From Patescibacteria group bacterium (GTDB lineage Bacteria; Patescibacteriota; Minisyncoccia; Phycocordibacterales; UBA2100), in the NCBI GenBank assembly GCA_038062075.1, contig JBBTXY010000003.1:17589-81588 (forward strand): a DNA stretch of 64,000 nucleotides. The letters are read 5' to 3'. The stretch's first letter is position 1. Every line of letters starts with the position of its first letter. A program made the translations under genes and the position numbers. Below, piece after piece: positions 53,407-64,000 of this stretch. The notes below the pieces were generated by a model that saw only the letters and a program-made list of their open reading frames with translations, was not told where the DNA came from and searched no databases.

Positions 53407-55658
53407 TGCCAAGTCCTTCCCGTGCTACAATCCTCTCCATGTTCGAAAAGGCATTGCGCACCATAGTCCTTGCGGGAGTGTTCGCGCTCCCGTTTCTCGT
53501 CCTCTACGTCTCGACGTCGCTCTTCTTTCCCTTCATTACGGGCAAGAATTTTGCCTTTCGCATCATCATCGAGATCATTGCCGGTGCATGGTTTTCTCTT
53601 GCACTAGTCAAGACCGAGTACCGGCCGCGGCGCTCGTGGCTTTTGTGGGCCTTCGCGGCCTTCGTACTTCTGATCGGTATTTCTGATATCTTCGGCGTCT
53701 ATCCGGAGAAGAGTTTTTGGAGCAACTATGAGCGCATGGAAGGGTGGGTGACGCTTGCGCATCTCTTTGTATATTTCGTCGTCGCGGTTTCGGTCCTCAA
53801 CACCGAGCGTCTCTGGAAGTACTGGTGGCACACGACACTTGGCGTCTCCGTCATCGTCGCTTGCATTGGTCTTTTCCAACTTGCGGGATGGGTCCCCATT
53901 AATCAAGGGGGAGCCCGCGTCGATGCGCGCATTGGGAACGCCACCTACCTCGGCGTCTACATGCTGTTCCATGTGTTCATGGCGGCGCTCTTTCTCGCAC
54001 GAGCGTGGGTTGAGCGGGCAAATGAGCGTACTCTGTACGTATCGCTCTATGGGGGAATCATTCTCCTCAATTCATTCGTTCTCTTTTTCACCGCGACGCG
54101 CGGCGCGATCTTAGGGCTCCTTGGCGGATTCCTCTTGAGTGGTCTCATTCTCATCCTACTTGCACCGCGCTCCCGCGTCGCATGGCGAGTTGGGAGCGTT
54201 ATTGCGGCGTTCATCATTCTTACAGGGGCGTTCTGGGCTGTGCGCGATCAGGCGTGGGTCCATCGGATAGAGCCCTTGCACCGCCTCGCGACCATTCTCT
54301 CCGACGGCACGACATTCTCGCGCTTCCTAAACTGGGGGATGGCCCTGCAAGGCTTCAAAGAGCGACCGATACTCGGCTGGGGTCAAGAGAATTATGCGGC
54401 GGTCTTCGACAAATACTACAACCCTGCCATGTACGCGCAGGAGCAGTGGTTCGACCGCACCCATAACATCATCTTTGATTGGCTCATCGCGGGCGGTATC
54501 CTCGGGCTTCTCGCATATTTCTCACTCTATCTTTTCGCACTCATCACTCTGTGGCGAAGCGGTCCGCCTGCGCGCGACGGATCGGGCGCGCGGTCAGGCG
54601 CATTCGCGCTGTATGAGCGCGCGATCCTCACCGGGCTCTTCGCAGGCTACTTCTTCTACCTCCTGTTCACCTTCGACAACATCACGAGCTACCTGCTCTT
54701 TATTTCGCTCTTGGCGTACATCGCGGCGCGCGCGACGGCGGGCGCGTCACCTCCGGTGCGCCCACCGATAACGCCGCTCTCACTCACGAGCTTGCCGATT
54801 GTAGTGGCAGTTATGCTTGTGGGAACGGGCGGGCTCGTGTGGTACGTGAATGCTGATGCGCTCGCCGCGAATCGGGCGCTCATCCAGGGACTTATGCCGT
54901 ATGCCGAAGGAGCATCGAAGAACCTTGCGTTTTTCGAGCAAGCGCTTGAGCGTGGGCATGGGAAGCAGGAAATACGCGAACAGTTCGCGCAGGCGGCGAT
55001 GAGCGTGATTGGTGCTCCCGGAGTGCCCAACGACTTGAAACAGCGTTTTGTACAGCGTGCGGCCGAGGAACTGGTGAAGCAGGCGAATGATGCGCCGCAA
55101 CACGCACGTGGCGCATTCTTTCTCGGCATCCTTCTTGATCGCGCCGGCGCATATGCGGACGCGAAACTGGCGCTTGAGCAAGCGCACGAGCGCTCACCAC
55201 AGAAACAAGGCGTTCTCTTCGAGTTTGGGTTGAATGCGTTCGCGCGCGGTGCAAACGACGAAGCACTTCAGTACTTTAAGTCGGCGTATGAAAGTGCGCC
55301 GCAGTATGCGGAAGCGTTTGCGTACTACGGTGCCGCGCTGATCCAAACGGGGCATGAGAAAGAAGCGGAGGAGCTTCTCGCGCCGTTGATAGGTACACGC
55401 ACTGCGGCGCATCAGCGCATCGCTGCCGCATATGCCGCTCGCGGGAAGTTCGATGCGATTATTGCTATCTGGAGTCCCTACATAGAGAAAAATCCTACCG
55501 ATTTCGACTCACGGCTTGTTATCGTCAGCGCATACTATTCCAAAGGAGACCGCGCGCGAGCGCTGCAGGAGCTTGAGCGTATGCGGCAGGAAATCCCCGG
55601 CGCAGCTGCGCAGATCGATGAACTGATCCGTCAGGCACAGAGCGGGGCGATACAGTAG
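53403..55658 (+). CDS. O-antigen ligase/polymerase-family (Wzy_C) membrane protein with C-terminal TPR domain
   Basis: 'FFTATRGAILGLLGG' Wzy_C motif; ~10 TMS; C-terminal ~250 aa of TPR-like Ala-rich repeats. Confidence 0.6.
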   Translation: MMPSPSRATILSMFEKALRTIVLAGVFALPFLVLYVSTSLFFPFITGKNFAFRIIIEIIAGAWFSLALVKTEYRPRRSWLLWAFAAFVLLIGISDIFGVYPEKSFWSNYERMEGWVTLAHLFVYFVVAVSVLNTERLWKYWWHTTLGVSVIVACIGLFQLAGWVPINQGGARVDARIGNATYLGVYMLFHVFMAALFLARAWVERANERTLYVSLYGGIILLNSFVLFFTATRGAILGLLGGFLLSGLILILLAPRSRVAWRVGSVIAAFIILTGAFWAVRDQAWVHRIEPLHRLATILSDGTTFSRFLNWGMALQGFKERPILGWGQENYAAVFDKYYNPAMYAQEQWFDRTHNIIFDWLIAGGILGLLAYFSLYLFALITLWRSGPPARDGSGARSGAFALYERAILTGLFAGYFFYLLFTFDNITSYLLFISLLAYIAARATAGASPPVRPPITPLSLTSLPIVVAVMLVGTGGLVWYVNADALAANRALIQGLMPYAEGASKNLAFFEQALERGHGKQEIREQFAQAAMSVIGAPGVPNDLKQRFVQRAAEELVKQANDAPQHARGAFFLGILLDRAGAYADAKLALEQAHERSPQKQGVLFEFGLNAFARGANDEALQYFKSAYESAPQYAEAFAYYGAALIQTGHEKEAEELLAPLIGTRTAAHQRIAAAYAARGKFDAIIAIWSPYIEKNPTDFDSRLVIVSAYYSKGDRARALQELERMRQEIPGAAAQIDELIRQAQSGAIQ

Positions 55659-55785
55659 CACGAAAAAGATCCACTGCGGAGGACGGGTGCGAGCTCCAAA
55701 AGTGAAAGTCAAATTGTGAGTGCCGCCGCCCTCCACAGTAGATCCTTCTTTCCCAAGTGTATCGACTTCCCATAAAAACGCAAAA

Positions 55786-55800
55786 CCCGCCGAAGGCGGG
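55786..55800 (-). terminator. Hairpin CCCGCC-gaa-GGCGGG with T-tract on minus strand
   Basis: On minus strand followed by TTTTGCGTTTTT; no annotated minus-strand ORF upstream. Confidence 0.35.
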
Positions 55801-56066
55801 ATCTGCGCGACTTTCTCTGGGCATCACATCTTTGTGACACTCACGTAGTTATCATAGCGCATCGAACTGGAAACGCAATCGTATGCATACTGATCTTTTC
55901 TTAGTTTCCATTTTTGATTTTTGTCTCTCTTTAGTTATCCACAGAAAAAATAAAAAACACATGCATGACGCACATAGAGTGCAATAATTCAGAAAACGCA
56001 TCAACATACGCAAAGCAACGATGCGGGTCGAATGTTTTAGTCCCTAGGGAAAACTAAAAAAATACT

Positions 56067-56117
56067 ATGGCCAAGAAAAAGAAGGCGAAGAAGGCAAAGA
56101 AGTCTCGCCGCCGATAA
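56067..56117 (+). CDS. 16-codon Lys/Arg-rich mini-ORF (MAKKKKAKKAKKSRRR) upstream of secA
   Basis: ATG..TAA intact, AGGGA 14 nt upstream, followed immediately by a strong terminator; too short for the ORF track. Confidence 0.3.
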   Translation: MAKKKKAKKAKKSRRR

Positions 56118-56137
56118 GACCTCCTCGGTCTATCCGA

Positions 56138-56170
56138 GAAGAACCCTCCTCTGGAGGGTTCTTCTCTTTT
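56138..56170 (+). terminator. Strong rho-independent terminator/attenuator
   Basis: 12-bp perfect stem GAAGAACCCTCC/GGAGGGTTCTTC, 3-nt loop, then TCTTTT. Confidence 0.65.
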
Positions 56171-56255
56171 GAGGCCAAACATTTTTTCAATGCAAAAACG
56201 TTCGTCCGATGAGTCGCCAAAGCGACTCGTTTAGGGTAGGATATTCCAACTGCAT

Positions 56256-58799
56256 ATGTCGTTTCTCAATCAATGGTTCGGAGATGGCTCCGGGAGCGCC
56301 TTACGCCGGGCCGAACCTATAGTCGGGAAGGTCAATGCTCTTGAGGAGAGTTTCAAAGTGCTCTCGGACGAGGCGCTGAAGGCGAAAACGACCGAATTTA
56401 AGGGGCGTCTCGAGAAAGGTGGGACCTTGGACGATCTTATGCCCGAGGCCTTTGCGGCGGTGCGGGAAGCCTCCCGCCGCACGCTTGGTCAGCGTCATTT
56501 CGATGTGCAGCTCATTGGCGGTGCGGTCTTGCACCAAGGCGGCATCGCAGAGATGCGCACCGGCGAAGGGAAGACCTTAGTCGCGACACTTCCAGCCTAT
56601 CTAAATGCACTCGAAGGGAAAGGCGTGCATGTCGTGACCGTGAACGACTACCTCTCGCGGCGCGATGCCGTGTGGATGGGACAGATCTACTGGGCGCTCG
56701 GGATGACGACTGCTGTCCTGAACCACGAAAGTTCGTTCCTCTACGATCCAAGCGCGGTACCGCAGGAAGAGAAGGCGGAAGATGAGAAGGTACAGGATGA
56801 ACTCGGCGCATTCAAGGTTGTGCATGAATTCCTCCGTCCCATCTCGCGCGAAGAAGCCTACGCGGCGGACATCACCTATGGAACCAACAACGAGTATGGT
56901 TTCGACTACTTGCGCGATAACCTTGAATACGAGCCGGGAAAGATCCGCCAAAAGCAGCACCACTTCGCTATTGTTGACGAAATTGACTCCATCTTGATCG
57001 ACGAAGCGCGCACGCCCCTCATCATCTCTGCGCCGGTTGCCGACGCCGAGGGTCTCTATCAGACATTCGCGCAGATCGCTACGACGATGAAAGAAGACGA
57101 AGATTATACTGTCGAGCATAAGCATCGCGCCATCATCATGACCGACGCGGGCATCGAGAAAGCCGAAGCAGCGCTTGGTCTTGGCTCCATCTACACCGAT
57201 GCCGGTATCAAGTATGTGCACCATCTGGAGACGGCCGTGCGCGGGAAGGCCCTGTTCCAGCGCGATAAGGAATATGTCGTGCGGGGCGGGGAAGTCATCA
57301 TCGTGGATGAATTCACGGGCCGCATGCAGCCAGGCAGACGCTGGAGTGAAGGCTTGCACCAGGCGATCGAGGCCAAAGAAGGCGTCGCCATACAAAAAGA
57401 GAGCCGCACGTTCGCGTCCATCACGTTCCAGAATTATTTCCGTCTTTACACGAAGCTTGCCGGGATGACGGGCACTGCCGCGACCTCTTCGGAAGAGTTC
57501 TTCAAGGTCTATGGGTTGACGACCGTCGCCATCCCAACGAACAAGCCGCCGAAGCGCGTTGATCACGATGACATGATGTTCCAATCGGAGAGCGGGAAGA
57601 TGCACGCGATCGCGAAGCGCGTCAAAGACCTGCACGAAAAAGGGCAGCCCGTCCTCGTCGGCACCGTTTCCGTCGAGAAGAACGAACTTCTCTCCACCCA
57701 TTTCAAACAAGCAGGTATCCCGCACGAACTTCTCAACGCGAAGAACCACGAGCGGGAAGGCGAGATCATCGCACAGGCCGGACGCAGGGGCGCCGTCGTC
57801 ATCGCGACGAATATGGCCGGCCGCGGCGTCGACATCAAGCTTGGAGGAAATCCGGCAACTGACGAGCAGTATGAGGAAGTGAGAAACGCAGGCGGTCTTT
57901 TCGTCCTCGGCACGGAGCGGCACGAAGCGCGGCGCATTGACAATCAGCTGCGCGGCCGTGCTGGCCGCCAAGGAGATCCTGGTGAGACGCAATTCTTCGT
58001 TTCCCTCGAAGATTCGCTGATGAAGATATTCGCCTCTGATGTTATCAAGCGAGTGATGGGCACCTTCAAGATCCCCGAAGACGAGCCTATTTACAATTCG
58101 ATGATAACGAAATCGTTGGAGCGTGCGCAGACGAGGATCGAGGAGATGAATTTCGATTCGCGCAAACATGTGCTTGCCTACGACGACGTCTTGAACGTGC
58201 AGCGCAAGAGCATCTACGAGCGTCGCCGCGCTCTTCTTGTTGGCGGCAACGAGACCGTCGATGGAGAACTCGGCCGCGTCGCGGAATTCATTCTCGAAGA
58301 GAAAGACGCGTGGAGGGGAAAGATCCAAGAACTAAAAACTAAGAACGGGGAAGCATTTTATCCCGCTGTGAGGCGTTTACTTCTGCAAACCGTCGATCTT
58401 CTGTGGGTCGAGCACCTCGAAGCGATGGAATACCTGCGCTCCTCGGTGAACCTGCGCGCGTACGGCCAGCGCGATCCTTTGGTGGAATACAAGAAAGAAG
58501 GCCTGCGCCTTTTCCAAGGGATGGAAGCATCCTACACGTTGCACGTTGCCTCAACTGTGCCTGGCCTGTTCGGAGCGCAACAGCGCGAAGGCCTGCCTGC
58601 CGCAGTCTTGACGAAGGCGGGGGAAGTCGTGCAAAAAGCTGCGCAATCTATTACCGCATCGCACGTGCACACCGGCATCAAAAAATACGGCCGCAACGAC
58701 AAGGTCACCATCACCGACGGCACGACGACGCAGGAAATGAAATTCAAGAAGGCAGAGCGGCTCTTACAAACTGGTCAGTGGAAAATTGTTGAGCGTTGA
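56256..58799 (+). CDS. secA: Preprotein translocase ATPase SecA (short form, no C-terminal zinc finger)
   Basis: 'RTGEGKTLVATLPAYLNAL', DEAD-like 'IVDEIDSILIDEARTPLIIS', 'TNMAGRGVDIKLGG'. Confidence 0.95.
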   Translation: MSFLNQWFGDGSGSALRRAEPIVGKVNALEESFKVLSDEALKAKTTEFKGRLEKGGTLDDLMPEAFAAVREASRRTLGQRHFDVQLIGGAVLHQGGIAEMRTGEGKTLVATLPAYLNALEGKGVHVVTVNDYLSRRDAVWMGQIYWALGMTTAVLNHESSFLYDPSAVPQEEKAEDEKVQDELGAFKVVHEFLRPISREEAYAADITYGTNNEYGFDYLRDNLEYEPGKIRQKQHHFAIVDEIDSILIDEARTPLIISAPVADAEGLYQTFAQIATTMKEDEDYTVEHKHRAIIMTDAGIEKAEAALGLGSIYTDAGIKYVHHLETAVRGKALFQRDKEYVVRGGEVIIVDEFTGRMQPGRRWSEGLHQAIEAKEGVAIQKESRTFASITFQNYFRLYTKLAGMTGTAATSSEEFFKVYGLTTVAIPTNKPPKRVDHDDMMFQSESGKMHAIAKRVKDLHEKGQPVLVGTVSVEKNELLSTHFKQAGIPHELLNAKNHEREGEIIAQAGRRGAVVIATNMAGRGVDIKLGGNPATDEQYEEVRNAGGLFVLGTERHEARRIDNQLRGRAGRQGDPGETQFFVSLEDSLMKIFASDVIKRVMGTFKIPEDEPIYNSMITKSLERAQTRIEEMNFDSRKHVLAYDDVLNVQRKSIYERRRALLVGGNETVDGELGRVAEFILEEKDAWRGKIQELKTKNGEAFYPAVRRLLLQTVDLLWVEHLEAMEYLRSSVNLRAYGQRDPLVEYKKEGLRLFQGMEASYTLHVASTVPGLFGAQQREGLPAAVLTKAGEVVQKAAQSITASHVHTGIKKYGRNDKVTITDGTTTQEMKFKKAERLLQTGQWKIVER

Positions 58800-58843
58800 A
58801 ATGGAATGTGTACCTCTCATGGGATTGTTAGAGGCAGCGGAGT

Positions 58844-58880
58844 CCAGCACCAATGTTTCTTCAAGAAACATTGGTGCTGG
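58844..58880 (+). repeat. Perfect 17-bp-stem hairpin downstream of secA
   Basis: CCAGCACCAATGTTTCTT-ca-AAGAAACATTGGTGCTGG; no U-tract follows. Confidence 0.45.
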
Positions 58881-58953
58881 GCGGAGCCCTTGCTTGCAAC
58901 AGGGAAGTGGAAGATCATAGCGTAGCCGACTGGAATTTTTAAGGGAAGCGGGT

Positions 58954-60405
58954 ATGATTGCCCGCATGTCCGAATTCGTTCCTACGATAGGTCTTGAGAT
59001 TCATGCGGAGCTGAAGACGCGCACTAAGATGTTCTGCAACTCGAAGAATGACCCCGAAGAAAAGCGGCCGAATGTGAATATCTGCCCCGTCTGTCTCGCG
59101 CATCCTGGAACGCTTCCGGTCATCAATAGGGAAGCTGTGCGACATGTTCTGCGCGTGGGCGTCGCGCTTGGCGGCGAGCTTGCTGATTACACTGAATTTG
59201 ACCGCAAGAATTATTTCTATCCTGACCTCCCCAAGGGTTACCAGGTCAGTCAGTACGAATTCCCGCTTGTTTCTAGGGGGTCGCTAAACGGCATTGTCAT
59301 CACGCGCGTGCATCTTGAAGAGGACACGGCGAGCTCCATCCACGATGCCAAAACGGGAGCTACACTTATAAACTTTAACCGCTCCGGCGTTCCTTTGATG
59401 GAGCTGGTGACAGAGCCCGTGATACACACGGCGGAGGAAGCGGGGAACTTCGCACGCGAGCTGCAGATTCTCCTGCGCTATCTTGATGCGAGCGATGCCG
59501 ATATGGAGAAAGGGCAGATGCGCCTTGAAGCGAATGTTTCCGTTTCCGATTCTGACGTGCTTGGCACCAAAGTGGAAGTGAAAAATATCAACTCGTTCCG
59601 CGCGATGGAGCGGGCAATCGCCTATGAGATCAAACGCCAGAGCGACGTTCTTGCTCGCGGTGAGCGCGTAATTCAAGAGACCCGCGGTTGGGACGATACG
59701 AAGCAGCAGACATTCTCGCAGCGTGTAAAAGAAGTTGCCGCCGATTACCGATATTTTCCCGATCCCGATCTGCCATCATTGAAACTCTCGGAGATCTCTG
59801 AGTTTTCGCATGACGTACTTATGCAGTCGATCCCCGAATTACCAGAGGCGCGCAGGGGGCGCTATGCAGAGTGGGGGATAAAGCCGGCTGACGCGGAGCA
59901 GTTCGTGAGCTATCCCCGCCTCGGTGCTTTCTTCGACGAGGTGGCAGAAAGGCATCTTGGCGACGCTGCCTTTATCCAACGCTCGGCAAATTACATTGCG
60001 AACGATTTAGTGAAGATAATCCGAGATACCGGAGAGCAAGATACGGAATTGATTGCTGAAATACCGATTTCAGCTACCAGATTCGAGAAAATAATCAGGC
60101 TCATAGGAGAGGGGAAGATCTCCTCTCGGGTGGCCAAAGACCTACTAGTGCACACGATAGAAGAGGGCAAAGAGCCTGAGACGATCGCCAAGGAGCGCGG
60201 GCTCTTTACTGAAGCCCAAGGTGCAGGCGTCGAACCCATCATCGAAAAGATTCTCGAAGAACATGCTTCGGTGGTCGCTGATTATAAAAAGGGGAAAGAG
60301 GCTGCGCTGCAATTTCTCATCGGCCAGTGCATGCGTGTGCTTAAAGGCGCAGCGGATCCTGTAGAGCTTCGCGCGAGGATACTTGAGAAAATTACTACAA
60401 AGTGA
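58954..60405 (+). CDS. gatB: Asp/Glu-tRNA(Asn/Gln) amidotransferase subunit B
   Basis: 'PTIGLEIHAEL', 'NICPVCLAHPGTLPV', 'VHLEEDT', C-terminal GatB/YqeY domain. Confidence 0.9.
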   Translation: MIARMSEFVPTIGLEIHAELKTRTKMFCNSKNDPEEKRPNVNICPVCLAHPGTLPVINREAVRHVLRVGVALGGELADYTEFDRKNYFYPDLPKGYQVSQYEFPLVSRGSLNGIVITRVHLEEDTASSIHDAKTGATLINFNRSGVPLMELVTEPVIHTAEEAGNFARELQILLRYLDASDADMEKGQMRLEANVSVSDSDVLGTKVEVKNINSFRAMERAIAYEIKRQSDVLARGERVIQETRGWDDTKQQTFSQRVKEVAADYRYFPDPDLPSLKLSEISEFSHDVLMQSIPELPEARRGRYAEWGIKPADAEQFVSYPRLGAFFDEVAERHLGDAAFIQRSANYIANDLVKIIRDTGEQDTELIAEIPISATRFEKIIRLIGEGKISSRVAKDLLVHTIEEGKEPETIAKERGLFTEAQGAGVEPIIEKILEEHASVVADYKKGKEAALQFLIGQCMRVLKGAADPVELRARILEKITTK

Positions 60406-60985
60406 TCATAGTCGCCAGGAACCTACGGATCTCAACATCTCCTCAGCTTACAGAGATGAGGTCCAGACAAAATAATTTTGGTGCGATGATTCTTACTTCC
60501 ACACCGAACTGGTCTTAAAAGAGACGCTAGTTATGGTATGGGAACCATACGAGCTATCTGAATGTGTGCTTGATGCTTTTCGGCAACAAGAGAATACATT
60601 TTGTAATTGACCAGAGAGAGCTTGAGTGTATGACTCATGCTTCGATATTCAAGAATTTCAGGCTCATTTCACCGGTCGTATATTCCACTCCCAGCTGAAA
60701 AGGGAGTAGATCGCTCAATGCAAGGATCGCATCAATTTCAATCCCGGTCGCAATAATGGCACTTCAAGCATTGTAGGGGAGTCACATCCATGATCATTCT
60801 GGTTAGAAATGAGTGGTGGAGAATATTGTAATTATTTTTACAACATATCTTCGCTAGGTTGCGCCCTTAAGGATACGATCGTGCCTCGTCTAGGTCCCAA
60901 ACGGGGATTTCGAGGGTCAAAATGGCAAAATCTGCTGTGATTTCAGGCTGGCGTGGGGATTGTGGTAGCCATTTTATGGCTTATT

Positions 60986-61027
60986 TAGCAAGGCTAAACC
61001 TCGCATGTGCGAGGTTTAGCCTTGCTA
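60986..61027. repeat. Perfect 40-bp palindrome (TAGCAAGGCTAAACCTCGCA|TGCGAGGTTTAGCCTTGCTA)
   Basis: Exact reverse-complement arms with no spacer, 108 bp upstream of the HuH transposase start. Confidence 0.65.
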
Positions 61028-61134
61028 GGTGAGCCAAGATATCCAGATTTTAGGCTTTTGAGGTCTTTTCAGTCCTAAAGTAGGTGCAATAATGGTTCCT
61101 GAAGCCCGGGGAGGTATTTTCGAGTCAGGAAAGT

Positions 61135-61815
61135 ATGAGACGGACCACATTTGCTGAAGGTGAATACTACCATTTGTATAATCGTGGGGTCGATAAGCGC
61201 ACTGTTTTCAGCACGCGCGGCGATTTCGAACGCTTCAAAGCGTATCTATATCTTCTGAACGACGAAGAGAGCACGCGGGCATCAAATTTCTTTGAAGGTA
61301 CGCGAGGGAAAGACCCTTATGAAAACGCGCGGGGAAACCCCCTTGTCGCGATCGGCGCGTACTGCCTCATGCCAAACCATTTCCATCTCCTCGTCACACC
61401 CCTTCTTGAACATGGCGTCCCGCGCTTCATGCAAAAACTCCTCACCGCTTATACAATGTACTTCAATGAGCGTACCCTTCGCTCCGGAAGTCTTTTTGAA
61501 GGAACATACAAGAGCCGTCATGCGGAGAGCGACACGTACCTCAAGTATCTCTACGCCTACATCCATCTTAACCCGGCGCGTTTTTTTATTACTGATTGGC
61601 AGAAGGCAACCGAAGGAGATCTGCATTCACTGGAACATAAGATCGCGACATATCCGTATTCAAGCGCGCACGAATATTTCACATCGAAGTATGTCATCAC
61701 ATCGCCATCGCATTTTCCGCGGCACTTTGTGCGGGCGAAAGACATACGATCACACCTTAATTTCTGGTTGAGGTTCAGAGTAGGTGAGGAGAAGCCTGTT
61801 CTCGGGGAAACGTAA
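61135..61815 (+). CDS. IS200-like / REP-associated tyrosine (HuH Y1) transposase
   Basis: 'YHLYNRGVDKRTVF', HuH 'CLMPNHFHLLV', catalytic Tyr region 'YLYAYIHLNP'. Confidence 0.7.
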   Translation: MRRTTFAEGEYYHLYNRGVDKRTVFSTRGDFERFKAYLYLLNDEESTRASNFFEGTRGKDPYENARGNPLVAIGAYCLMPNHFHLLVTPLLEHGVPRFMQKLLTAYTMYFNERTLRSGSLFEGTYKSRHAESDTYLKYLYAYIHLNPARFFITDWQKATEGDLHSLEHKIATYPYSSAHEYFTSKYVITSPSHFPRHFVRAKDIRSHLNFWLRFRVGEEKPVLGET

Positions 61816-61870
61816 AAAAGAGATATTGACACATCAGTTATCTCGTTGGATACCCAACAATATCTTTTTT
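61815..61870 (+). promoter_or_regulatory. Consensus -35 TTGACA (61826-61831) bracketed by inverted repeat AAAAAAGAGATATTG / CAATATCTTTTTT
   Basis: Lies between tnpA stop and HTH gene 61931; either IS right-end hairpin or operator/promoter. Confidence 0.35.
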
Positions 61871-61930
61871 AGCCTTATTCTTGCTGCCGAGATTCTCCAC
61901 AGGGGCGGTCAATGAGTAGAGACAACCTGC

Positions 61931-62929
61931 ATGTTCGTGGATATAATCCGAGACATGGCTCAGGAGATAAATCTCGGAGGGACGATATACATTTCTTCAA
62001 AGCAGGCAGCCGAGATTACCGGCTACGCCCAGGATTATGTCGGCCAACTTGCACGTAGCGGTGCTATCGAAGCGAAGCGGATCTCAGGGCTTTGGTATAT
62101 TCATGAGGACTCGATCCGACAACACAAAGAGAAGACCGATGCGTACGTCCCACAGCCGCCGCAGCCAGAGCGAGTTCAAGAAGCTGAAGTAAGTTTGTCA
62201 TTGGACGGAAAGGACTATGTCTCTGCAAAACGTGCATCAAAGCTCACAGGCTATTCCCAGGACTATGTGGGGCAATTGGCGCGCTCTGGACAGGTGTTGT
62301 CACGCCAGATCGGGAACCGGTGGTATGTTGACCGTACGTCGCTCGTCGAACACAAGAAAAAGAAAGATTCGTTGCTAGCCACAGTCCAGAGGGACTCGGT
62401 TGGCCTTGCCTCGGCATCAGAGGAAGGAGAAAACATCACAGAAGAGGCGATATCGGAGAGCCGAGACACGCATTTTACATATATTAATGAGGATAATCAG
62501 CCGATTCCTCAAATCCCTGAGAAAGAATCCAGCTATCCCGACACCAGTCTTGAAGGTCGTTCTGCTCCAGAAGAGACTCTCGAGAGCGATGTTGTCAATC
62601 AGATCCCCATACATGTCGTCTGGGCGCCAAGGCAAGGCCGTCTGGGCGCTTCATCTGGACCCGGAGGGAGGTCACATGCCAATCTCTCAAAGAGAAGCAT
62701 CTTACTTGCAGCCGGAGGTTCCTTGCTTGTTGGCATGCTTGCGCTGGTCTTATACTTAGGAGTTAGTGGTGTCTTTACTTTGCCTATTCACAATCTCGGA
62801 TTACCGAGAAATGAAGCAGCCAAAGGGTACCTTGGCAATAGTATTATTGTCAGGAGGGTGGGTGATAGTATTCACCAACTCGCTGAGATTCTCTTTTCAA
62901 AAGAAGTAGTTTATCAAAGGGTCCCATAG
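61931..62929 (+). CDS. Membrane-anchored protein with two tandem excisionase-type HTH (HTH_17-like) repeats
   Basis: Repeats 'SSKQAAEITGYAQDYVGQLARSGAIEAKRISGLWYIHEDSI' / 'SAKRASKLTGYSQDYVGQLARSGQVLSRQIGNRWYVDRTSL'; C-terminal TM 'ILLAAGGSLLVGMLALVLYLGV'. Confidence 0.55.
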   Translation: MFVDIIRDMAQEINLGGTIYISSKQAAEITGYAQDYVGQLARSGAIEAKRISGLWYIHEDSIRQHKEKTDAYVPQPPQPERVQEAEVSLSLDGKDYVSAKRASKLTGYSQDYVGQLARSGQVLSRQIGNRWYVDRTSLVEHKKKKDSLLATVQRDSVGLASASEEGENITEEAISESRDTHFTYINEDNQPIPQIPEKESSYPDTSLEGRSAPEETLESDVVNQIPIHVVWAPRQGRLGASSGPGGRSHANLSKRSILLAAGGSLLVGMLALVLYLGVSGVFTLPIHNLGLPRNEAAKGYLGNSIIVRRVGDSIHQLAEILFSKEVVYQRVP

Positions 62930-63181
62930 GTAGAGGGAGAAATGTCATATTAGGACAACGCGGAAGCCTTTTCAGGCTCTTTTGACTTTAATCTACCCAT
63001 ATAGGGCATATCGGGGTGCCGAGAATACTCTCCGTCAGTCGTAACCCCGTCAGCTACTTACGTAGTGCTTGGTTTCTGGAGCAAAAAGACGTGAGTTCCC
63101 GGTTGAGTTCCCGGAGAGATCTGATAAAAAGCTATGTGATCTTTGTTATCCCCACATGAATAATGCAAGCGGGTCTGAGAG

Positions 63182-63211
63182 CCGACTTAGCTAATAAAAT
63201 ATAGCTAAGTC
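63182..63211 (+). promoter_or_regulatory. Perfect 10-bp-stem hairpin with AT-rich loop (candidate operator / -10) upstream of HTH gene
   Basis: CGACTTAGCT-aataaaatat-AGCTAAGTCG, 17 nt upstream of ATG 63228. Confidence 0.35.
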
Positions 63212-63227
63212 GAATATCCGACTACGC

Positions 63228-64000
63228 ATGGGAAACAGCGAGGACGAACTTTTCTTTGACGGCATTCGGTATCTCTCTGCGGCGGATGCAGCAGCGTCTT
63301 CTGGTTTGCATCGCGACTATGTCGCGCGTCTCGCGCGTGAAGGAAAAATACGCGCGAAGCGCATTGGTAAGAGTTGGTACGTCAACAAGGCGTCATTCGA
63401 AGAGTTTCTCGTTCGTCAGGAATACGAACACGCGAAACGCCGCAAAGAGCTCATGCACGATCGTCGGCGCGAGTATATTCGCGCATCGCGCATCGCGCAT
63501 GGGAAGGAAGCAACACTCTCTTTCTCGAAAGATGTACTGACTTCTCTTTCTTCTACTACAACGGAGACGAAAGAAAAGGCAAAAAGTTTAGTTCGCACGG
63601 GTACGTACAATGTTCAGCGCGCTCTTGCCATTGCGGCGTCGCGCGCACAAGCGCACGCGGGAGTTCCTGTTTCGCACTTCGCGGCATTCCACGTGCCGCA
63701 CCCGGTGACCGAATTCGCGCATAAGGCCGTCGCGCTCATCACCGCGTTCGTTCTCATCTTCGGCGCATACTCGCTTGTCGATGCGCGCTATGCGCGCTTC
63801 GCACTCGAGACGATGCGTCATTCGACAGAGAGGATCATGCAAACAGGAACGTATGCTCTTAAGGGAGGTGCGGTGGAATGGGCGCGCGATGCGGCATCGC
63901 AGCTCGCGGCCGCGGCCACGAATTCCGGTGCGACCCTCGATGCTCTGTATGGTTCTTTCACACCGGATGCGGACACATCGTTCTCCCTATTTGCACGCAC
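63228..64000 (+). CDS. Excisionase-type HTH + TM protein, paralogue of 61931-62929 (3' end outside window)
   Basis: Open frame to window end (no stop, hence absent from ORF track); 'SAADAAASSGLHRDYVARLAREGKIRAKRIGKSWYVNKASF'; TM 'AVALITAFVLIFGAYSLV'. Confidence 0.5.
   Translation, partial: MGNSEDELFFDGIRYLSAADAAASSGLHRDYVARLAREGKIRAKRIGKSWYVNKASFEEFLVRQEYEHAKRRKELMHDRRREYIRASRIAHGKEATLSFSKDVLTSLSSTTTETKEKAKSLVRTGTYNVQRALAIAASRAQAHAGVPVSHFAAFHVPHPVTEFAHKAVALITAFVLIFGAYSLVDARYARFALETMRHSTERIMQTGTYALKGGAVEWARDAASQLAAAATNSGATLDALYGSFTPDADTSFSLFAR

What the first reader, a model, noticed from the sequence alone, without database searches (positions are those of the whole stretch)
61931..64000. 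Paralogous membrane-anchored proteins with repeated excisionase-type HTH modules next to the transposase
The first protein has two tandem ~45-aa HTH_17-like repeats plus a C-terminal TM. The second (63228 to window end, missed by the ORF track because it has no stop in the window) has the same module plus a TM. Each is preceded by a palindromic candidate operator, one framing a consensus TTGACA and one a perfect 10-bp stem with a TAAAAT-like loop. Cytoplasmic DNA-binding domains tethered to the membrane, sited beside a mobile element, suggest a mobile-element regulatory or DNA-anchoring function. I know of no described function.
Basis: partly seen in the sequence, partly recalled or inferred. 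Interest (0 to 1): 0.5.

Follow-up and report, generated by a model that had tools for sequence, protein, structure and literature searches.

The report
Membrane-tethered DNA-binding pair with giant fibre
Two neighbouring genes of an ultra-small (Patescibacteria) bacterium encode membrane-anchored proteins whose DNA-binding heads face the cell interior; one is the start of a giant tail-fibre-like surface protein, and a conserved palindromic DNA site sits on that gene's promoter, which suggests a direct surface-to-gene control circuit that has nothing to do with the nearby "transposase".

Summary
ORF1 (61955-62929) has two tandem HTH_17 winged-helix modules and one transmembrane helix near its C-terminus. 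ORF2 (63228 to beyond the window) has one module of the same subtype and a transmembrane helix. The two proteins are homologous only in that module.

In the parent contig ORF2 runs for at least 3,200 aa. Complete relatives end in a phage tail-fibre intramolecular-chaperone domain (Peptidase_S74), some with an Ig-like domain, so it is a membrane-anchored, probably trimeric, surface fibre.

The pair is a fixed chromosomal unit: SecA, GatB, ORF1, giant gene. An ORF2-type gene follows ORF1 in 75 of 79 species-level Paceibacteria/Kaiserbacteria loci. The Y1 "transposase" is present in only 15 of 83 loci, and its orthologues have lost the catalytic motifs. The mobile-element reading fails.

The palindrome before ORF2 is the local copy of a conserved dyad, CGAnnTAnCTA-(TAAAAT)-TAGnTAnnTCG. 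It lies over a -10-like box and shows symmetry without RNA covariation. In a blind metagenome scan, 46 of 51 testable hits lie just upstream of an ORF2-type gene. The palindrome before ORF1 is not conserved and looks like a terminator.

Best model, inferred rather than shown: transmembrane transcription regulators that gate fibre expression at this operator. I found no published description of the family.

The parts
61955..62929 (+). ORF1: 324-aa protein (332 aa from the upstream ATG at 61931). Layout: two tandem winged-HTH modules, a Pro-rich linker, conserved motifs, one TM helix, a short C-terminal tail.
   Evidence: ORF list. At least 899 homologues, all Patescibacteria, 300-400 aa, most starting at MAQEI/MSD. 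AF2 pLDDT is above 90 over both modules.
61961..62140 (+). ORF1 HTH_17 module 1 (signature YAQDY[IV]GQLAR...GLWY)
   Evidence: Pfam HTH_17 residues 20-68. Local HMM. Nearly invariant across 80 loci.
62192..62371 (+). ORF1 HTH_17 module 2 (signature Y.QDYVGQLARSG...GNRWYV)
   Evidence: Second Pfam stretch. Local HMM. Foldseek aligns both modules to the tandem wHTH protein TraN.
62696..62782 (+). ORF1 transmembrane helix (residues 256-284); K/R-rich on its N-terminal side
   Evidence: Hydropathy. AF2 helix 254-278. A hydrophobic stretch preceded by K/R is present in the aligned homologues.
62843..62926 (+). ORF1 C-terminal tail beyond the membrane, with the conserved motif LFSKE[LV].Y.R
   Evidence: Alignment A1. 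AF2 helix 305-322.
61893..61947 (+). ORF1 promoter region: box TTCTCCACA (61893-61901) about 40 nt upstream of a -10 TATAAT (61942-61947), which ends 7 nt before the ATG at 61955 (leaderless arrangement).
   Evidence: A -10-like hexamer ends 6-9 nt before the ATG in 77 of the 78 loci evaluated. The box lies 38-44 nt upstream in 44 of them.
61816..61870 (.). It contains the hairpin 61845-61858 plus a T-run. Judged a terminator of the upstream gene or chance, not an operator.
   Evidence: No counterpart upstream of ORF1 in other loci.
62965..62988 (+). Terminator-like hairpin plus T-run, 36 nt after the ORF1 stop
63146..63154 (+). Box TTATCCCCA (DnaA-box-like), 40 nt upstream of the TAAAAT hexamer
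   Evidence: Forward-oriented TTATCC[AC]CA copies cluster in this intergenic region and upstream of the secA leader across loci.
63183..63212 (.). Conserved dyad (candidate operator): CGACTTAGCTA - A TAAAAT A - TAGCTAAGTCG, centred on a -10-like TAAAAT (63195-63200).
   Evidence: Present in >=61 of 75 ORF1-ORF2 spacers and essentially nowhere else in 850 kb. Symmetry without covariation. In a motif-first metagenome scan, 46 of 51 testable hits lie upstream of an ORF2-type gene.
63209..63222 (+). Small hairpin GTCGA-ATAT-CCGAC (TCG...CGA) at the predicted 5' end of the ORF2 transcript
   Evidence: Recurs in about two thirds of loci but is only weakly stable (mean z -0.64).
63228..64000 (+). ORF2, first 257 codons of a giant gene of at least 3,200 codons in the parent contig.
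   Evidence: The ORF2 type has 566 cluster representatives at E<=1e-10, up to 3,439 aa, with the HTH at or near the N-terminus.
63270..63410 (+). ORF2 HTH_17 module (signature RDY[IV]ARL[AC]R.GK...GK.WYV)
   Evidence: Pfam 38 bits; TIGR01764 29.8 bits, above its cut-off. Conserved in orthologues.
63723..63785 (+). ORF2 transmembrane helix (residues 166-186), preceded by the conserved F.HK
   Evidence: Hydropathy. The same segment is present in orthologues.

Best explanation
What it is (well supported). This is a conserved two-gene chromosomal module of Paceibacteria/Kaiserbacteria-type Patescibacteria. ORF1 is a small single-pass membrane protein. Its cytoplasmic part carries two tandem excisionase/MerR-type winged-HTH modules, and only about 50 residues lie outside the membrane. 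ORF2 has one HTH of the same subtype, a linker and a signal-anchor helix. It then continues as a giant extracellular, Thr/Ser/Gly/Ala-rich protein of at least 3,200 aa. In complete relatives this protein ends with the intramolecular chaperone domain of phage tail fibres, sometimes followed by an Ig-like domain. It is therefore a membrane-anchored, probably trimeric, surface fibre.

How it most likely works (inferred). Both proteins act as transmembrane transcription regulators. From the membrane, their HTH modules bind the conserved dyad CGAnnTAnCTA-(TAAAAT)-TAGnTAnnTCG, which overlaps the -10 element of the giant gene's own promoter. Occupancy by ORF1 and/or by the N-terminal heads of fibres already made would gate further transcription of the fibre gene, most simply as negative feedback. 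The short outer tail of ORF1, or the state of the fibre, could modulate this.

The adjacent Y1 'transposase' plays no part.
For: Shown:
- HTH_17 above Pfam threshold in both proteins, twice in ORF1.
- The AF2 model is confident over both ORF1 modules. Foldseek's best matches are DNA-bound winged-HTH proteins: TraN (a tandem-wHTH repressor), Pukovnik Xis, RacA, BldC, pSK1 Par and MerR-family proteins. TraN's two recognition helices contact adjacent major grooves at a promoter (PMC6158623).
- One TM helix in each protein, with basic residues on the HTH side.
- An ORF2-type gene lies directly downstream of ORF1 in 75 of 79 species loci with room, and GatB and SecA lie upstream.
- ORF2 is at least 3,200 aa.
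- Peptidase_S74 is present in the complete syntenic orthologue L015 and in 10 of 29 representatives of >=1,000 aa. The Bact_surface_Ig-like domain is present in three.
- The dyad is present in >=61 of 75 spacers (more with a relaxed pattern) and essentially nowhere else in 850 kb. 78% of dyad positions are complementary against 20-44% in slid controls, with no covariation above shuffles. That is the signature of a protein site, not an RNA stem.
- In three loci the dyad lies about 500 nt before the ATG, so it acts at promoter level.
- In a blind motif scan of metagenomes, 46 of 51 testable hits lie just upstream of an ORF2-type gene and 41 of 44 follow an ORF1-type gene.
- Recognition-helix and wing residues, including the wing Arg and Trp, are nearly invariant, matching an invariant DNA target.

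From the literature: transmembrane transcription regulators that bind DNA from the membrane are a recognised and widespread class (PMC10269533).
Against: - No result here shows that either HTH binds this dyad or any DNA.
- The dyad could be the site of an unrelated regulator.
- A trimeric fibre would present three HTH heads, which does not fit a two-fold site neatly.
- In the AF2 model the two ORF1 modules do not pack like TraN's compact internal dimer (two-module rmsd about 26 A, pTM 0.37).
- The recognition helix (QDY.GQLAR) carries few basic residues.
- Topology rests on hydropathy and the positive-inside rule only.
- The C-terminus of the window's own ORF2 was not available, so its chaperone domain is inferred from relatives.
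- I found no co-variation between HTH sequence and operator variants.
Confidence: 0.42

Rival explanations
1. The membrane-tethered HTH modules are not sequence-specific regulators. They could be protein-protein adaptors, as the HTH of RodZ binds MreB. They could also be low-specificity nucleoid-to-membrane tethers that anchor the base of the fibre, or the chromosome, to the envelope. Some other factor would then bind the dyad.
For: - The topology (HTH, single TM, outer segment) is that of RodZ (my own knowledge, not tested here).
- The family is a single-copy core gene pair across a whole class, as expected for a structural role.
- The HTH surfaces are nearly invariant and the recognition helix is poor in basic residues.
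- RacA, a chromosome-anchoring wHTH protein, is among the fold matches.
Against: - The fold matches are all DNA-binding proteins, and the wing Arg/Trp residues are kept.
- An exceptionally specific dyad co-occurs with exactly this gene pair. That would be a coincidence under this view.
- The HTH type is HTH_17, not the XRE type of RodZ.
Confidence: 0.3
2. The palindrome before ORF2 works at the RNA level. It would be a terminator for ORF1, or a 5' stem-loop that stabilises or controls translation of the very long fibre mRNA. It would not be a protein operator on DNA.
For: - The window copy can form a perfect 11-bp stem.
- A second small hairpin (TCG...CGA) recurs just downstream in about two thirds of loci.
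- A 10-kb-plus mRNA would benefit from a 5' stabiliser (inference).
Against: - Variable positions of the arms are mostly non-complementary and do not covary: 34-36 of 54 sequences are unpaired at three pairs, and scores are within the shuffle range.
- The loop is a conserved -10-like TAAAAT.
- No T-run follows the stem.
- ORF1 has its own terminator-like hairpin at 62965.
- No Rfam family matches.
- The downstream hairpin is only weakly stable (mean z -0.64).
Confidence: 0.1
3. The ORF1-ORF2 spacer is a replication origin or a DnaA-controlled region, because it holds clustered DnaA-box-like TTATCCACA motifs. The membrane HTH proteins would tether it to the membrane.
For: - TTATCC[AC]CA and related boxes cluster in this spacer in many loci, up to four within 50 nt.
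- An AT-rich element follows them.
- 104 of 131 exact forward copies are non-coding.
Against: - GC skew is positive along the whole 64-kb window with no switch at the locus.
- All flanking genes read through the region on one strand.
- The boxes are almost all in one orientation (117 forward, 12 reverse). In most loci they lie about 40 nt upstream of a -10 hexamer, and they occur at three separate promoters: the secA leader, ORF1 and ORF2. That pattern fits promoter elements, not an origin.
Confidence: 0.05
4. One reading: the proteins serve the neighbouring mobile element, as excisionase-like or element-regulatory proteins.
For: - The HTH type is the one used by excisionases.
- The window copy of the Y1_Tnp-like gene keeps its HUH and Tyr motifs.
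Against: - The pair is conserved in chromosomal synteny in about 80 species, most without any Y1 gene nearby (15 of 83).
- Y1 orthologues in the same slot have lost the HUH and Tyr motifs.
- There is no integrase.
- PADLOC gives only generic weak HTH hits.
Confidence: 0.03

Closest known systems
Transmembrane transcription regulators (ToxR, TcpP, CadC, VtrA; 'TTRs', PMC10269533)
   Same: An N-terminal cytoplasmic DNA-binding domain, one transmembrane helix and an outward-facing C-terminal part. They act on promoters while remaining in the membrane. They are often encoded next to a partner membrane protein, as ToxR is with ToxS.
   Different: Those proteins use OmpR/PhoB-type winged helices; here the domain is HTH_17 (excisionase/MerR type). 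ORF1 has two DNA-binding modules and almost no outer domain. ORF2's outer part is not a sensor domain but a fibre more than 3,000 aa long. DNA binding is not demonstrated here.
TraN of plasmid pIP501 (PDB 4pm3/4p0z; PMC6158623)
   Same: One chain with two tandem excisionase/MerR-like winged-HTH domains. It was the best Foldseek match over both ORF1 modules. TraN represses a promoter by placing its two recognition helices in adjacent major grooves.
   Different: TraN is a small cytosolic protein of a conjugation operon with a compact internal-dimer fold. ORF1 has a 25-residue Pro-rich linker between the modules, a TM anchor and a chromosomal context. Sequence similarity is not detectable, and the two-module superposition is poor (rmsd about 26 A).
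Excisionase / BldC / RacA / MerR-type winged-HTH DNA binders (Pfam HTH_17, TIGR01764)
   Same: Domain family and fold. Single-module matches have TM-scores of 0.58-0.75 normalised to the target. Profile scores are above threshold.
   Different: Those proteins are soluble. Excisionases act with integrases at att sites. MerR proteins have a dimerisation helix and an effector domain. None is fused to a membrane anchor and a surface fibre.
Phage tail fibres/spikes and endosialidases with a C-terminal intramolecular chaperone (Pfam Peptidase_S74)
   Same: Complete ORF2-family members carry the S74 chaperone domain near the C-terminus, with the SD.R.K motif. It follows a long Gly/Thr/Ser-rich region, as in trimeric fibres.
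   Different: These are cellular proteins anchored by an N-terminal TM helix, not parts of a virion. They carry a cytoplasmic HTH head. No other phage genes are nearby.
RodZ
   Same: A cytoplasmic HTH, a single TM helix and an outer segment. It is a core, single-copy membrane protein.
   Different: The RodZ HTH is XRE-type and binds MreB, not DNA. No XRE hit was found here. This comparison rests on my own knowledge and no MreB link was tested.

Membership tests
Pfam HTH_17 (PF12728) / excisionase-family DNA-binding domain (TIGR01764) | Profile score at or above the curated cut-off | tested here: met
   Pfam: ORF1 44.5 bits and ORF2 38.0 bits against a cut-off of 27. TIGR01764: ORF2 29.8 against 28.8 (met); ORF1 26.5 against 28.8 (just below).
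Pfam HTH_17 (PF12728) / excisionase-family DNA-binding domain (TIGR01764) | Winged-helix fold of the Xis/MerR type | tested here: met
   AF2 pLDDT above 90 with strand-strand-helix-helix-strand-strand elements in each module. Foldseek matches to Xis, BldC, RacA and TraN.
Recombination directionality factors (true excisionases) | Encoded in an integrative element next to an integrase and att sites | tested here: not met
   Conserved chromosomal synteny SecA-GatB-ORF1-ORF2 in about 80 species, with no integrase in the flanks.
MerR-family regulators | MerR-type profile match, plus a long dimerisation helix and a C-terminal effector domain | tested here: not met
   No MerR/MerR_1 Pfam or NCBIfam hit at E<=1. 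The C-terminal parts are a linker plus TM helix, not an effector domain.
ToxR-like transmembrane transcription regulators | Cytoplasmic DNA-binding domain followed by a single transmembrane helix | tested here: met
   HTH modules lie N-terminal to one hydrophobic helix, with basic residues on the HTH side. Topology is predicted, not measured.
ToxR-like transmembrane transcription regulators | OmpR/PhoB-type winged helix (Trans_reg_C) as the DNA-binding domain | tested here: not met
   Only HTH_17 is found.
ToxR-like transmembrane transcription regulators | Binds a specific operator and controls transcription from the membrane | not testable with these tools
   A gene-specific conserved dyad over a -10-like box exists, but binding was not tested.
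TraN-like tandem winged-HTH 'internal dimer' | Two wHTH domains in one chain | tested here: met
TraN-like tandem winged-HTH 'internal dimer' | The two domains pack into a compact pseudo-dimer with the wings at the interface | tested here: inconclusive
   The two-module alignment to 4pm3 has an rmsd of about 26 A and the model pTM is 0.37. The relative orientation in the model is not reliable.
Tail-fibre-type proteins with intramolecular chaperone (Peptidase_S74) | S74 chaperone domain near the C-terminus | tested here: inconclusive
   Met in the syntenic orthologue L015 (37.8 bits against a cut-off of 22) and in P0176, P0181 and others. The C-terminus of the window's own ORF2 lies beyond the available DNA.
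IS200/IS605 Y1 transposase or REP-associated tyrosine transposase (the neighbouring gene, 61135-61815) | Profile match with HUH and catalytic Tyr, and evidence of mobility | tested here: inconclusive
   Y1_Tnp scores 29.4 bits against a cut-off of 23 (met). REP_Tyr_transpos scores 31 against 80 (not met). HUH (NHFHLL) and YIHLNP are present in the window copy. Same-slot orthologues at 43-49% identity have lost them, which indicates vertical inheritance rather than recent transposition.

The most novel reading that the evidence does not exclude
The giant surface fibre is itself a transcription factor. Its own cytoplasmic N-terminal HTH, with ORF1 as co-regulator, binds the operator on the fibre gene's promoter. 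The number or state of fibres in the envelope (intact, sheared, or engaged with a host cell) would then be read out directly at the gene, with no second messenger. Because the HTH is the first part to leave the ribosome, it could even act in cis on the gene still being transcribed, so that only one multi-kilobase transcript is made at a time. This would be a contact- or assembly-sensing circuit of a kind not described in bacteria, sitting in organisms whose host attachment is their central unsolved biology.
Probability: 0.17. Interest if true: 0.8.

Novelty: new variant of a known kind. Interest (0 to 1): 0.6.

Why it matters
Patescibacteria make up a large share of bacterial diversity. Most are thought to live attached to host cells, yet how they attach and how they regulate anything is largely unknown.

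This locus gives a concrete and testable unit. It comprises a class-wide conserved giant tail-fibre-like surface protein, a partner protein, and a short well-defined DNA site on the fibre gene's promoter. If the membrane-tethered HTH modules bind that site, this is a new architecture of transmembrane transcription regulator: HTH_17 heads, one of them fused to a fibre of more than 3,000 aa. It would also be a direct link between the cell surface and gene expression in an ultra-small cell.

There is a practical point too. The fibre gene breaks most assemblies, and the stored gene calls for the parent NCBI contig (L001) do not include it. An abundant surface structure of these organisms is therefore systematically under-reported.

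Tried and rejected
- Word-indexed homologue searches with the ORF2 N-terminus returned almost nothing (3 hits, none), probably because of low-complexity words. The exhaustive HMMER search replaced them.
- PDB sequence searches found nothing useful for the ORF1 family profile or for the ORF2 outer region.
- Pfam finds no domain in the first ~1,500 aa of the outer region of ORF2. There are no DNA tandem repeats in the giant gene.
- Rfam found nothing credible in 55600-64000 (one hit, 19 bits against a gathering score of 56).
- An RNA-stem reading of the ORF2 palindrome was rejected for lack of covariation. The small downstream hairpin is only weakly supported.
- An origin-of-replication reading of the DnaA-box-like motifs was rejected on GC skew, motif orientation and the fairly constant spacing to -10 boxes.
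- I looked for co-variation between HTH recognition-helix sequence and operator type and found none. The three apparent 'operator-less' loci carry the dyad about 500 nt further upstream.
- PADLOC gave only weak generic HTH hits (mad1). The AbiEi_4 hit is below its cut-off.
- Literature searches found no description of this family or architecture: Patescibacteria with giant proteins or HTH, HTH_17 with a membrane anchor, S74 chaperone in CPR bacteria, leaderless promoters in Patescibacteria, and the transmembrane-regulator survey. The held library is incomplete, so this is absence of evidence only.
Full report
**1. Origin of the window**

The exact ORF1 protein is encoded on contig CAYIIW010000001.1 of a Patescibacteria metagenome-assembled genome (GCA_964363605.1). 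It also occurs on Hainich groundwater contigs. Window coordinate = L001 coordinate + 51930.

**2. The observation**

ORF1 is the 61931-62929 frame of 332 aa.
- It matches Pfam HTH_17 at 44.5 bits, above the cut-off of 27, with two stretches. PHROG excisionase families also match.
- A module HMM places the repeats at 61961-62140 and 62192-62371. It finds no further copy in the 64-kb window other than ORF2.
- Hydropathy gives one transmembrane segment at residues 256-284.

The frame from 63228 is open to the window end.
- It has HTH_17 at 38 bits (residues 15-61) and a hydrophobic segment at residues 166-186.
- ORF1 and ORF2 are similar only over the HTH module (33-42% identity, E 3e-11 and 8e-9).

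- The real ORF1 start is most likely M9 at 61955.
- The proteins are paralogous only in the module.
- ORF2 is not small.

**3. ORF2 is the head of a giant fibre**

- In the parent contig the frame runs from L001 11298 to a 100-N assembly gap. It then continues stop-free in another frame to the end of the fetched DNA. That makes at least 1,469 + 1,731 codons.
- Orthologues in other loci have the same N-terminus: HTH, basic linker, F.HK, TM helix. A Thr/Ser/Gly/Ala-rich sequence follows, and most of these genes run off their contigs.
- An exhaustive HMMER search with the 257 window residues finds 2,944 proteins at E<=1e-3 and 566 at E<=1e-10. In nearly all listed hits the match starts within the first 30 residues of the protein, and a few carry an N-terminal extension of about 60-100 aa. 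Lengths reach 3,439 aa.
- Pfam sees nothing in the first ~1,500 aa of the outer region of the window protein.
- Complete family members end with Peptidase_S74, the intramolecular chaperone of endosialidases and tail fibres. Some add a bacterial surface Ig-like domain.
- The complete syntenic orthologue in L015 (1,366 aa) has the S74 domain with the SDRRLK motif. Ten of 29 representatives of >=1,000 aa carry it 150-450 residues from their end.

I infer a type-II-anchored, probably trimeric, tail-fibre-like surface protein. Trimerisation follows from established knowledge of S74 domains and was not tested here.

**4. The ORF1 family**

- At least 899 homologues were found. Every named one is from Patescibacteria, Paceibacterota, Parcubacteria or Kaiserbacteria. 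Each is annotated 'hypothetical' or 'helix-turn-helix domain-containing', apart from one evident mis-annotation.
- Conserved features in the 41-sequence alignment are both modules, a P.PP linker, HKK.KD.LLAAVQ.ESVG after module 2, short HF.Y and IPIRV motifs, K/R residues before the TM helix, and a C-terminal LFSKE[LV].Y.R motif.
- The AF2 model is confident (pLDDT above 90) over both modules and the helix after module 2. Confidence is moderate for the TM helix and low for the linkers.
- Foldseek against the PDB ranks TraN of pIP501 first, aligned across both modules. Single-module matches to Pukovnik Xis, RacA, pSK1 Par and BldC follow, and MerR-family matches span longer stretches.
- TraN is a one-chain tandem winged-HTH repressor that puts its two recognition helices into adjacent major grooves (PMC6158623).
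- The two-module superposition is poor, so only the architecture is shared, not the packing.

**5. Genomic context**

The look-ups for three homologues on long contigs show the same order: Wzy_C/TPR protein, SecA, GatB, an optional ~250-aa gene, the ORF1 homologue, then the giant gene.

A protein-pattern scan of one genome per species returned 80 loci. BLAST of their six-frame ORFs gave these counts:

| Feature relative to ORF1 | Loci |
|---|---|
| GatB upstream | >=75 of 83 |
| SecA further upstream | 69 of 83 |
| ORF2-type gene immediately downstream | 75 of 79 with room |
| Y1_Tnp-like gene anywhere in the locus | 15 of 83, at several positions and on either strand |

- Where the Y1-like gene occupies the window's slot, it is an orthologue of 43-49% identity. 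Its HUH histidines and catalytic tyrosine are replaced: PRGFLIL and AVHLHP in L008, QEFHLL and GFIHLNP in L006.
- The window copy keeps these motifs. It passes Pfam Y1_Tnp but not the NCBIfam REP-transposase cut-off.
- The pair is therefore a core chromosomal module. Its adjacency to a transposase-like gene is incidental.

**6. The palindromes**

Palindrome 1 (61816-61870) begins immediately after the Y1 gene stop.
- It includes a GC-containing hairpin followed by a T-run, which the terminator scan flags.
- It has no counterpart upstream of ORF1 in other loci.

Palindrome 2 is different. Lining up the 100 nt before the ORF2-type start codons shows a composite element in almost every locus. In the window it comprises:
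- one or more TTATCC[AC]CA boxes (63146-63154);
- about 40 nt downstream, the dyad CGAnnTAnCTA(G)-TAAAAT-(C)TAGnTAnnTCG, with arms at 63183-63193 and 63202-63212 and TAAAAT at 63195-63200;
- a short TCG...CGA hairpin.

Evidence on the dyad:
- A strict pattern finds it in 61 of 75 spacers. Every other hit in 850 kb is the reverse read of the same site or a second copy in front of a second ORF2-type gene.
- A relaxed pattern, or inspection by eye, recovers most of the remaining loci. These include three where the dyad lies about 500 nt before the ATG.
- On a 54-sequence alignment, 78% of arm positions are complementary, against 20-44% when the partner is slid. The symmetric positions are the invariant ones, and the variable positions are mostly non-complementary. 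No measure exceeds the shuffles convincingly. This is what a two-fold protein-binding site looks like, not an RNA stem.
- As an independent test I searched 241 million metagenome records with the DNA motif alone. There were 55 hits. Of the 51 with room downstream, 46 have an ORF2-type HTH gene starting usually 13-56 nt downstream. Of the 44 with room upstream, 41 follow an ORF1-type gene.

**7. Promoters**

- In 77 of the 78 loci evaluated, a TA[TC]A[AC]T hexamer ends 6-9 nt before the ORF1 start codon. In the window this is TATAAT at 61942-61947 with the ATG at 61955. This implies a leaderless transcript.
- Similar -10-like hexamers close to the start codons of GatB and SecA suggest this is a habit of the lineage (by eye only).
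- An (A/T)NTCC(A/C)C(A/C) box lies 38-44 nt upstream of the ORF1 -10 in 44 of 78 loci.
- In most loci where I measured it, the box lies about 40 nt (31-42) upstream of the -10 at the ORF2 promoter. It is about 39 nt upstream at a conserved promoter ahead of secA.
- The box matches the DnaA-box consensus. Its single orientation, its spacing to the -10 and the uniformly positive GC skew of the window argue for a promoter element and against an origin. What binds it is unknown.

**8. Mechanism**

Shown:
- domain identities, single TM helices and gene-pair conservation;
- the giant fibre nature of the ORF2 family;
- a gene-specific conserved dyad over a -10-like hexamer.

Inferred:
- N-in topology, from the absence of a signal peptide, the basic flank and the extracellular-type C-terminal domains;
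- that TAAAAT is the -10;
- that the HTH modules bind the dyad.

The most economical model is that ORF1 and/or the cytoplasmic heads of the fibre act as transmembrane transcription regulators of the fibre gene. This class is known to work from the membrane and to be widespread (PMC10269533). I give the model about 0.4.

The main rival (0.3) is that the HTH modules are adaptors or nucleoid tethers, and that another protein uses the dyad. RNA-level, origin and mobile-element readings are minor.

**9. Comparison and novelty**

- By mechanism the closest analogues are the ToxR/CadC-type regulators. The DNA-binding domain type fails that family's defining feature, so this is 'works like', not 'member of'.
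- By fold the closest are TraN and the Xis/BldC/RacA group.
- By outer domain the closest are tail fibres with S74 chaperones.
- I found no description of an HTH_17 head fused through a membrane anchor to a giant fibre, nor of its partner or its operator, in the searches listed. The held library is incomplete.
- I rate it a new variant of a known kind, with interest 0.6. The architecture and the sharply defined operator make a central question about Patescibacteria directly testable: how surface structures are controlled. The key step, DNA binding, remains unproven.

Noticed in passing
window 55935-56160 (small ORF 56067-56117): Upstream of secA lies a conserved unit found in nearly all related loci. 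In order it holds a TTATCCACA box (55935-55943), a GTGCAATAAT -10-like element, a conserved leader (AACGCATC...GATGCGGGTCGA) and a tiny lysine-rich ORF (MAKKKKAKKAKKSRRR). A strong hairpin plus T-run follows. No Rfam family matches. Its function is unknown.
   Followed up: partly
window 61942-61955; also the GatB start (58954) and SecA start (56256); loci L012-L091: A -10-like hexamer ends 6-9 nt before the ORF1 start codon in 77 of the 78 loci evaluated. Similar hexamers (TAGAGT, TAGGAT, TACAGT) sit a few nt before the GatB and SecA start codons. Leaderless mRNAs may be the rule in this lineage, with the giant gene as an exception that has a 5' UTR.
   Followed up: partly
window 55935, 61893, 63146; related loci: A DnaA-box-like motif, TTATCC[AC]CA, occurs almost only in forward orientation, usually about 40 nt upstream of -10 boxes. 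It marks three neighbouring promoters: the secA leader, ORF1 (degenerate copy) and the giant gene. This suggests a small co-regulated 'fibre plus SecA' set. The binding protein is unknown.
   Followed up: partly
loci L010, L019, L024, L029 and others, inside secA near its 3' end: 26 of the exact TTATCCACA copies are the codons GTT ATC CAC AAG (V-I-H-K) in a conserved SecA segment. They are coding coincidences, not regulatory boxes.
   Followed up: yes
window 60977-61036: A 29-nt near-perfect inverted repeat (2-nt loop) lies about 100 nt upstream of the Y1_Tnp-like gene and is unique in the window. A similar hairpin (GGCTTA..AGCAAGG.TAAAC) precedes the orthologous gene in L008. It could be an IS200-type end hairpin or a regulatory RNA.
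   Followed up: partly
window 61135-61815 and orthologues in L006, L008: The Y1_Tnp/RAYT-like gene keeps its HUH and Tyr motifs in the window. Same-slot orthologues at 43-49% identity have lost them, so the gene appears domesticated or decaying and is inherited vertically in this subclade.
   Followed up: yes
window 60406-61134: About 730 nt between the GatB stop and the Y1-like gene hold no ORF of note and no Rfam match. Apart from the inverted repeat noted above, this stretch is unexplained.
   Followed up: no
intergenic regions of L006-L091 and window 62929-63228: The heptamers CCGAGAT/ATCTCGG, often as CGAGATAC, are very frequent in intergenic DNA of these genomes. They often occur in inverted pairs between the box and the -10. 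They may be a lineage-wide regulatory or promoter-associated word.
   Followed up: no
L001 11298-20998 (window 63228 onward): The gene calls stored for the NCBI contig list only short minus-strand genes over the giant gene, which also contains a 100-N gap. Most contigs in public assemblies end inside this gene, so the fibre is systematically missed or truncated in annotations.
   Followed up: partly
L019 6281-6821, L020 7333-7856, L030 7435-7923: In three loci about 500 nt carrying many CATTCG[CT]AG direct repeats are inserted between the conserved dyad/promoter and the giant gene's start codon. This is a long repeat-rich 5' leader of unknown role.
   Followed up: no
L013 2109-2339(-), L015 2481-2735(-), L063, L068, L069, L048 2957-3193, L060 7250-7498, L083 8781-9155: Additional ORFs with the same HTH module occur near the locus in some genomes, on either strand and sometimes in place of SecA upstream of GatB. 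The module family therefore has further members that I did not examine.
   Followed up: no
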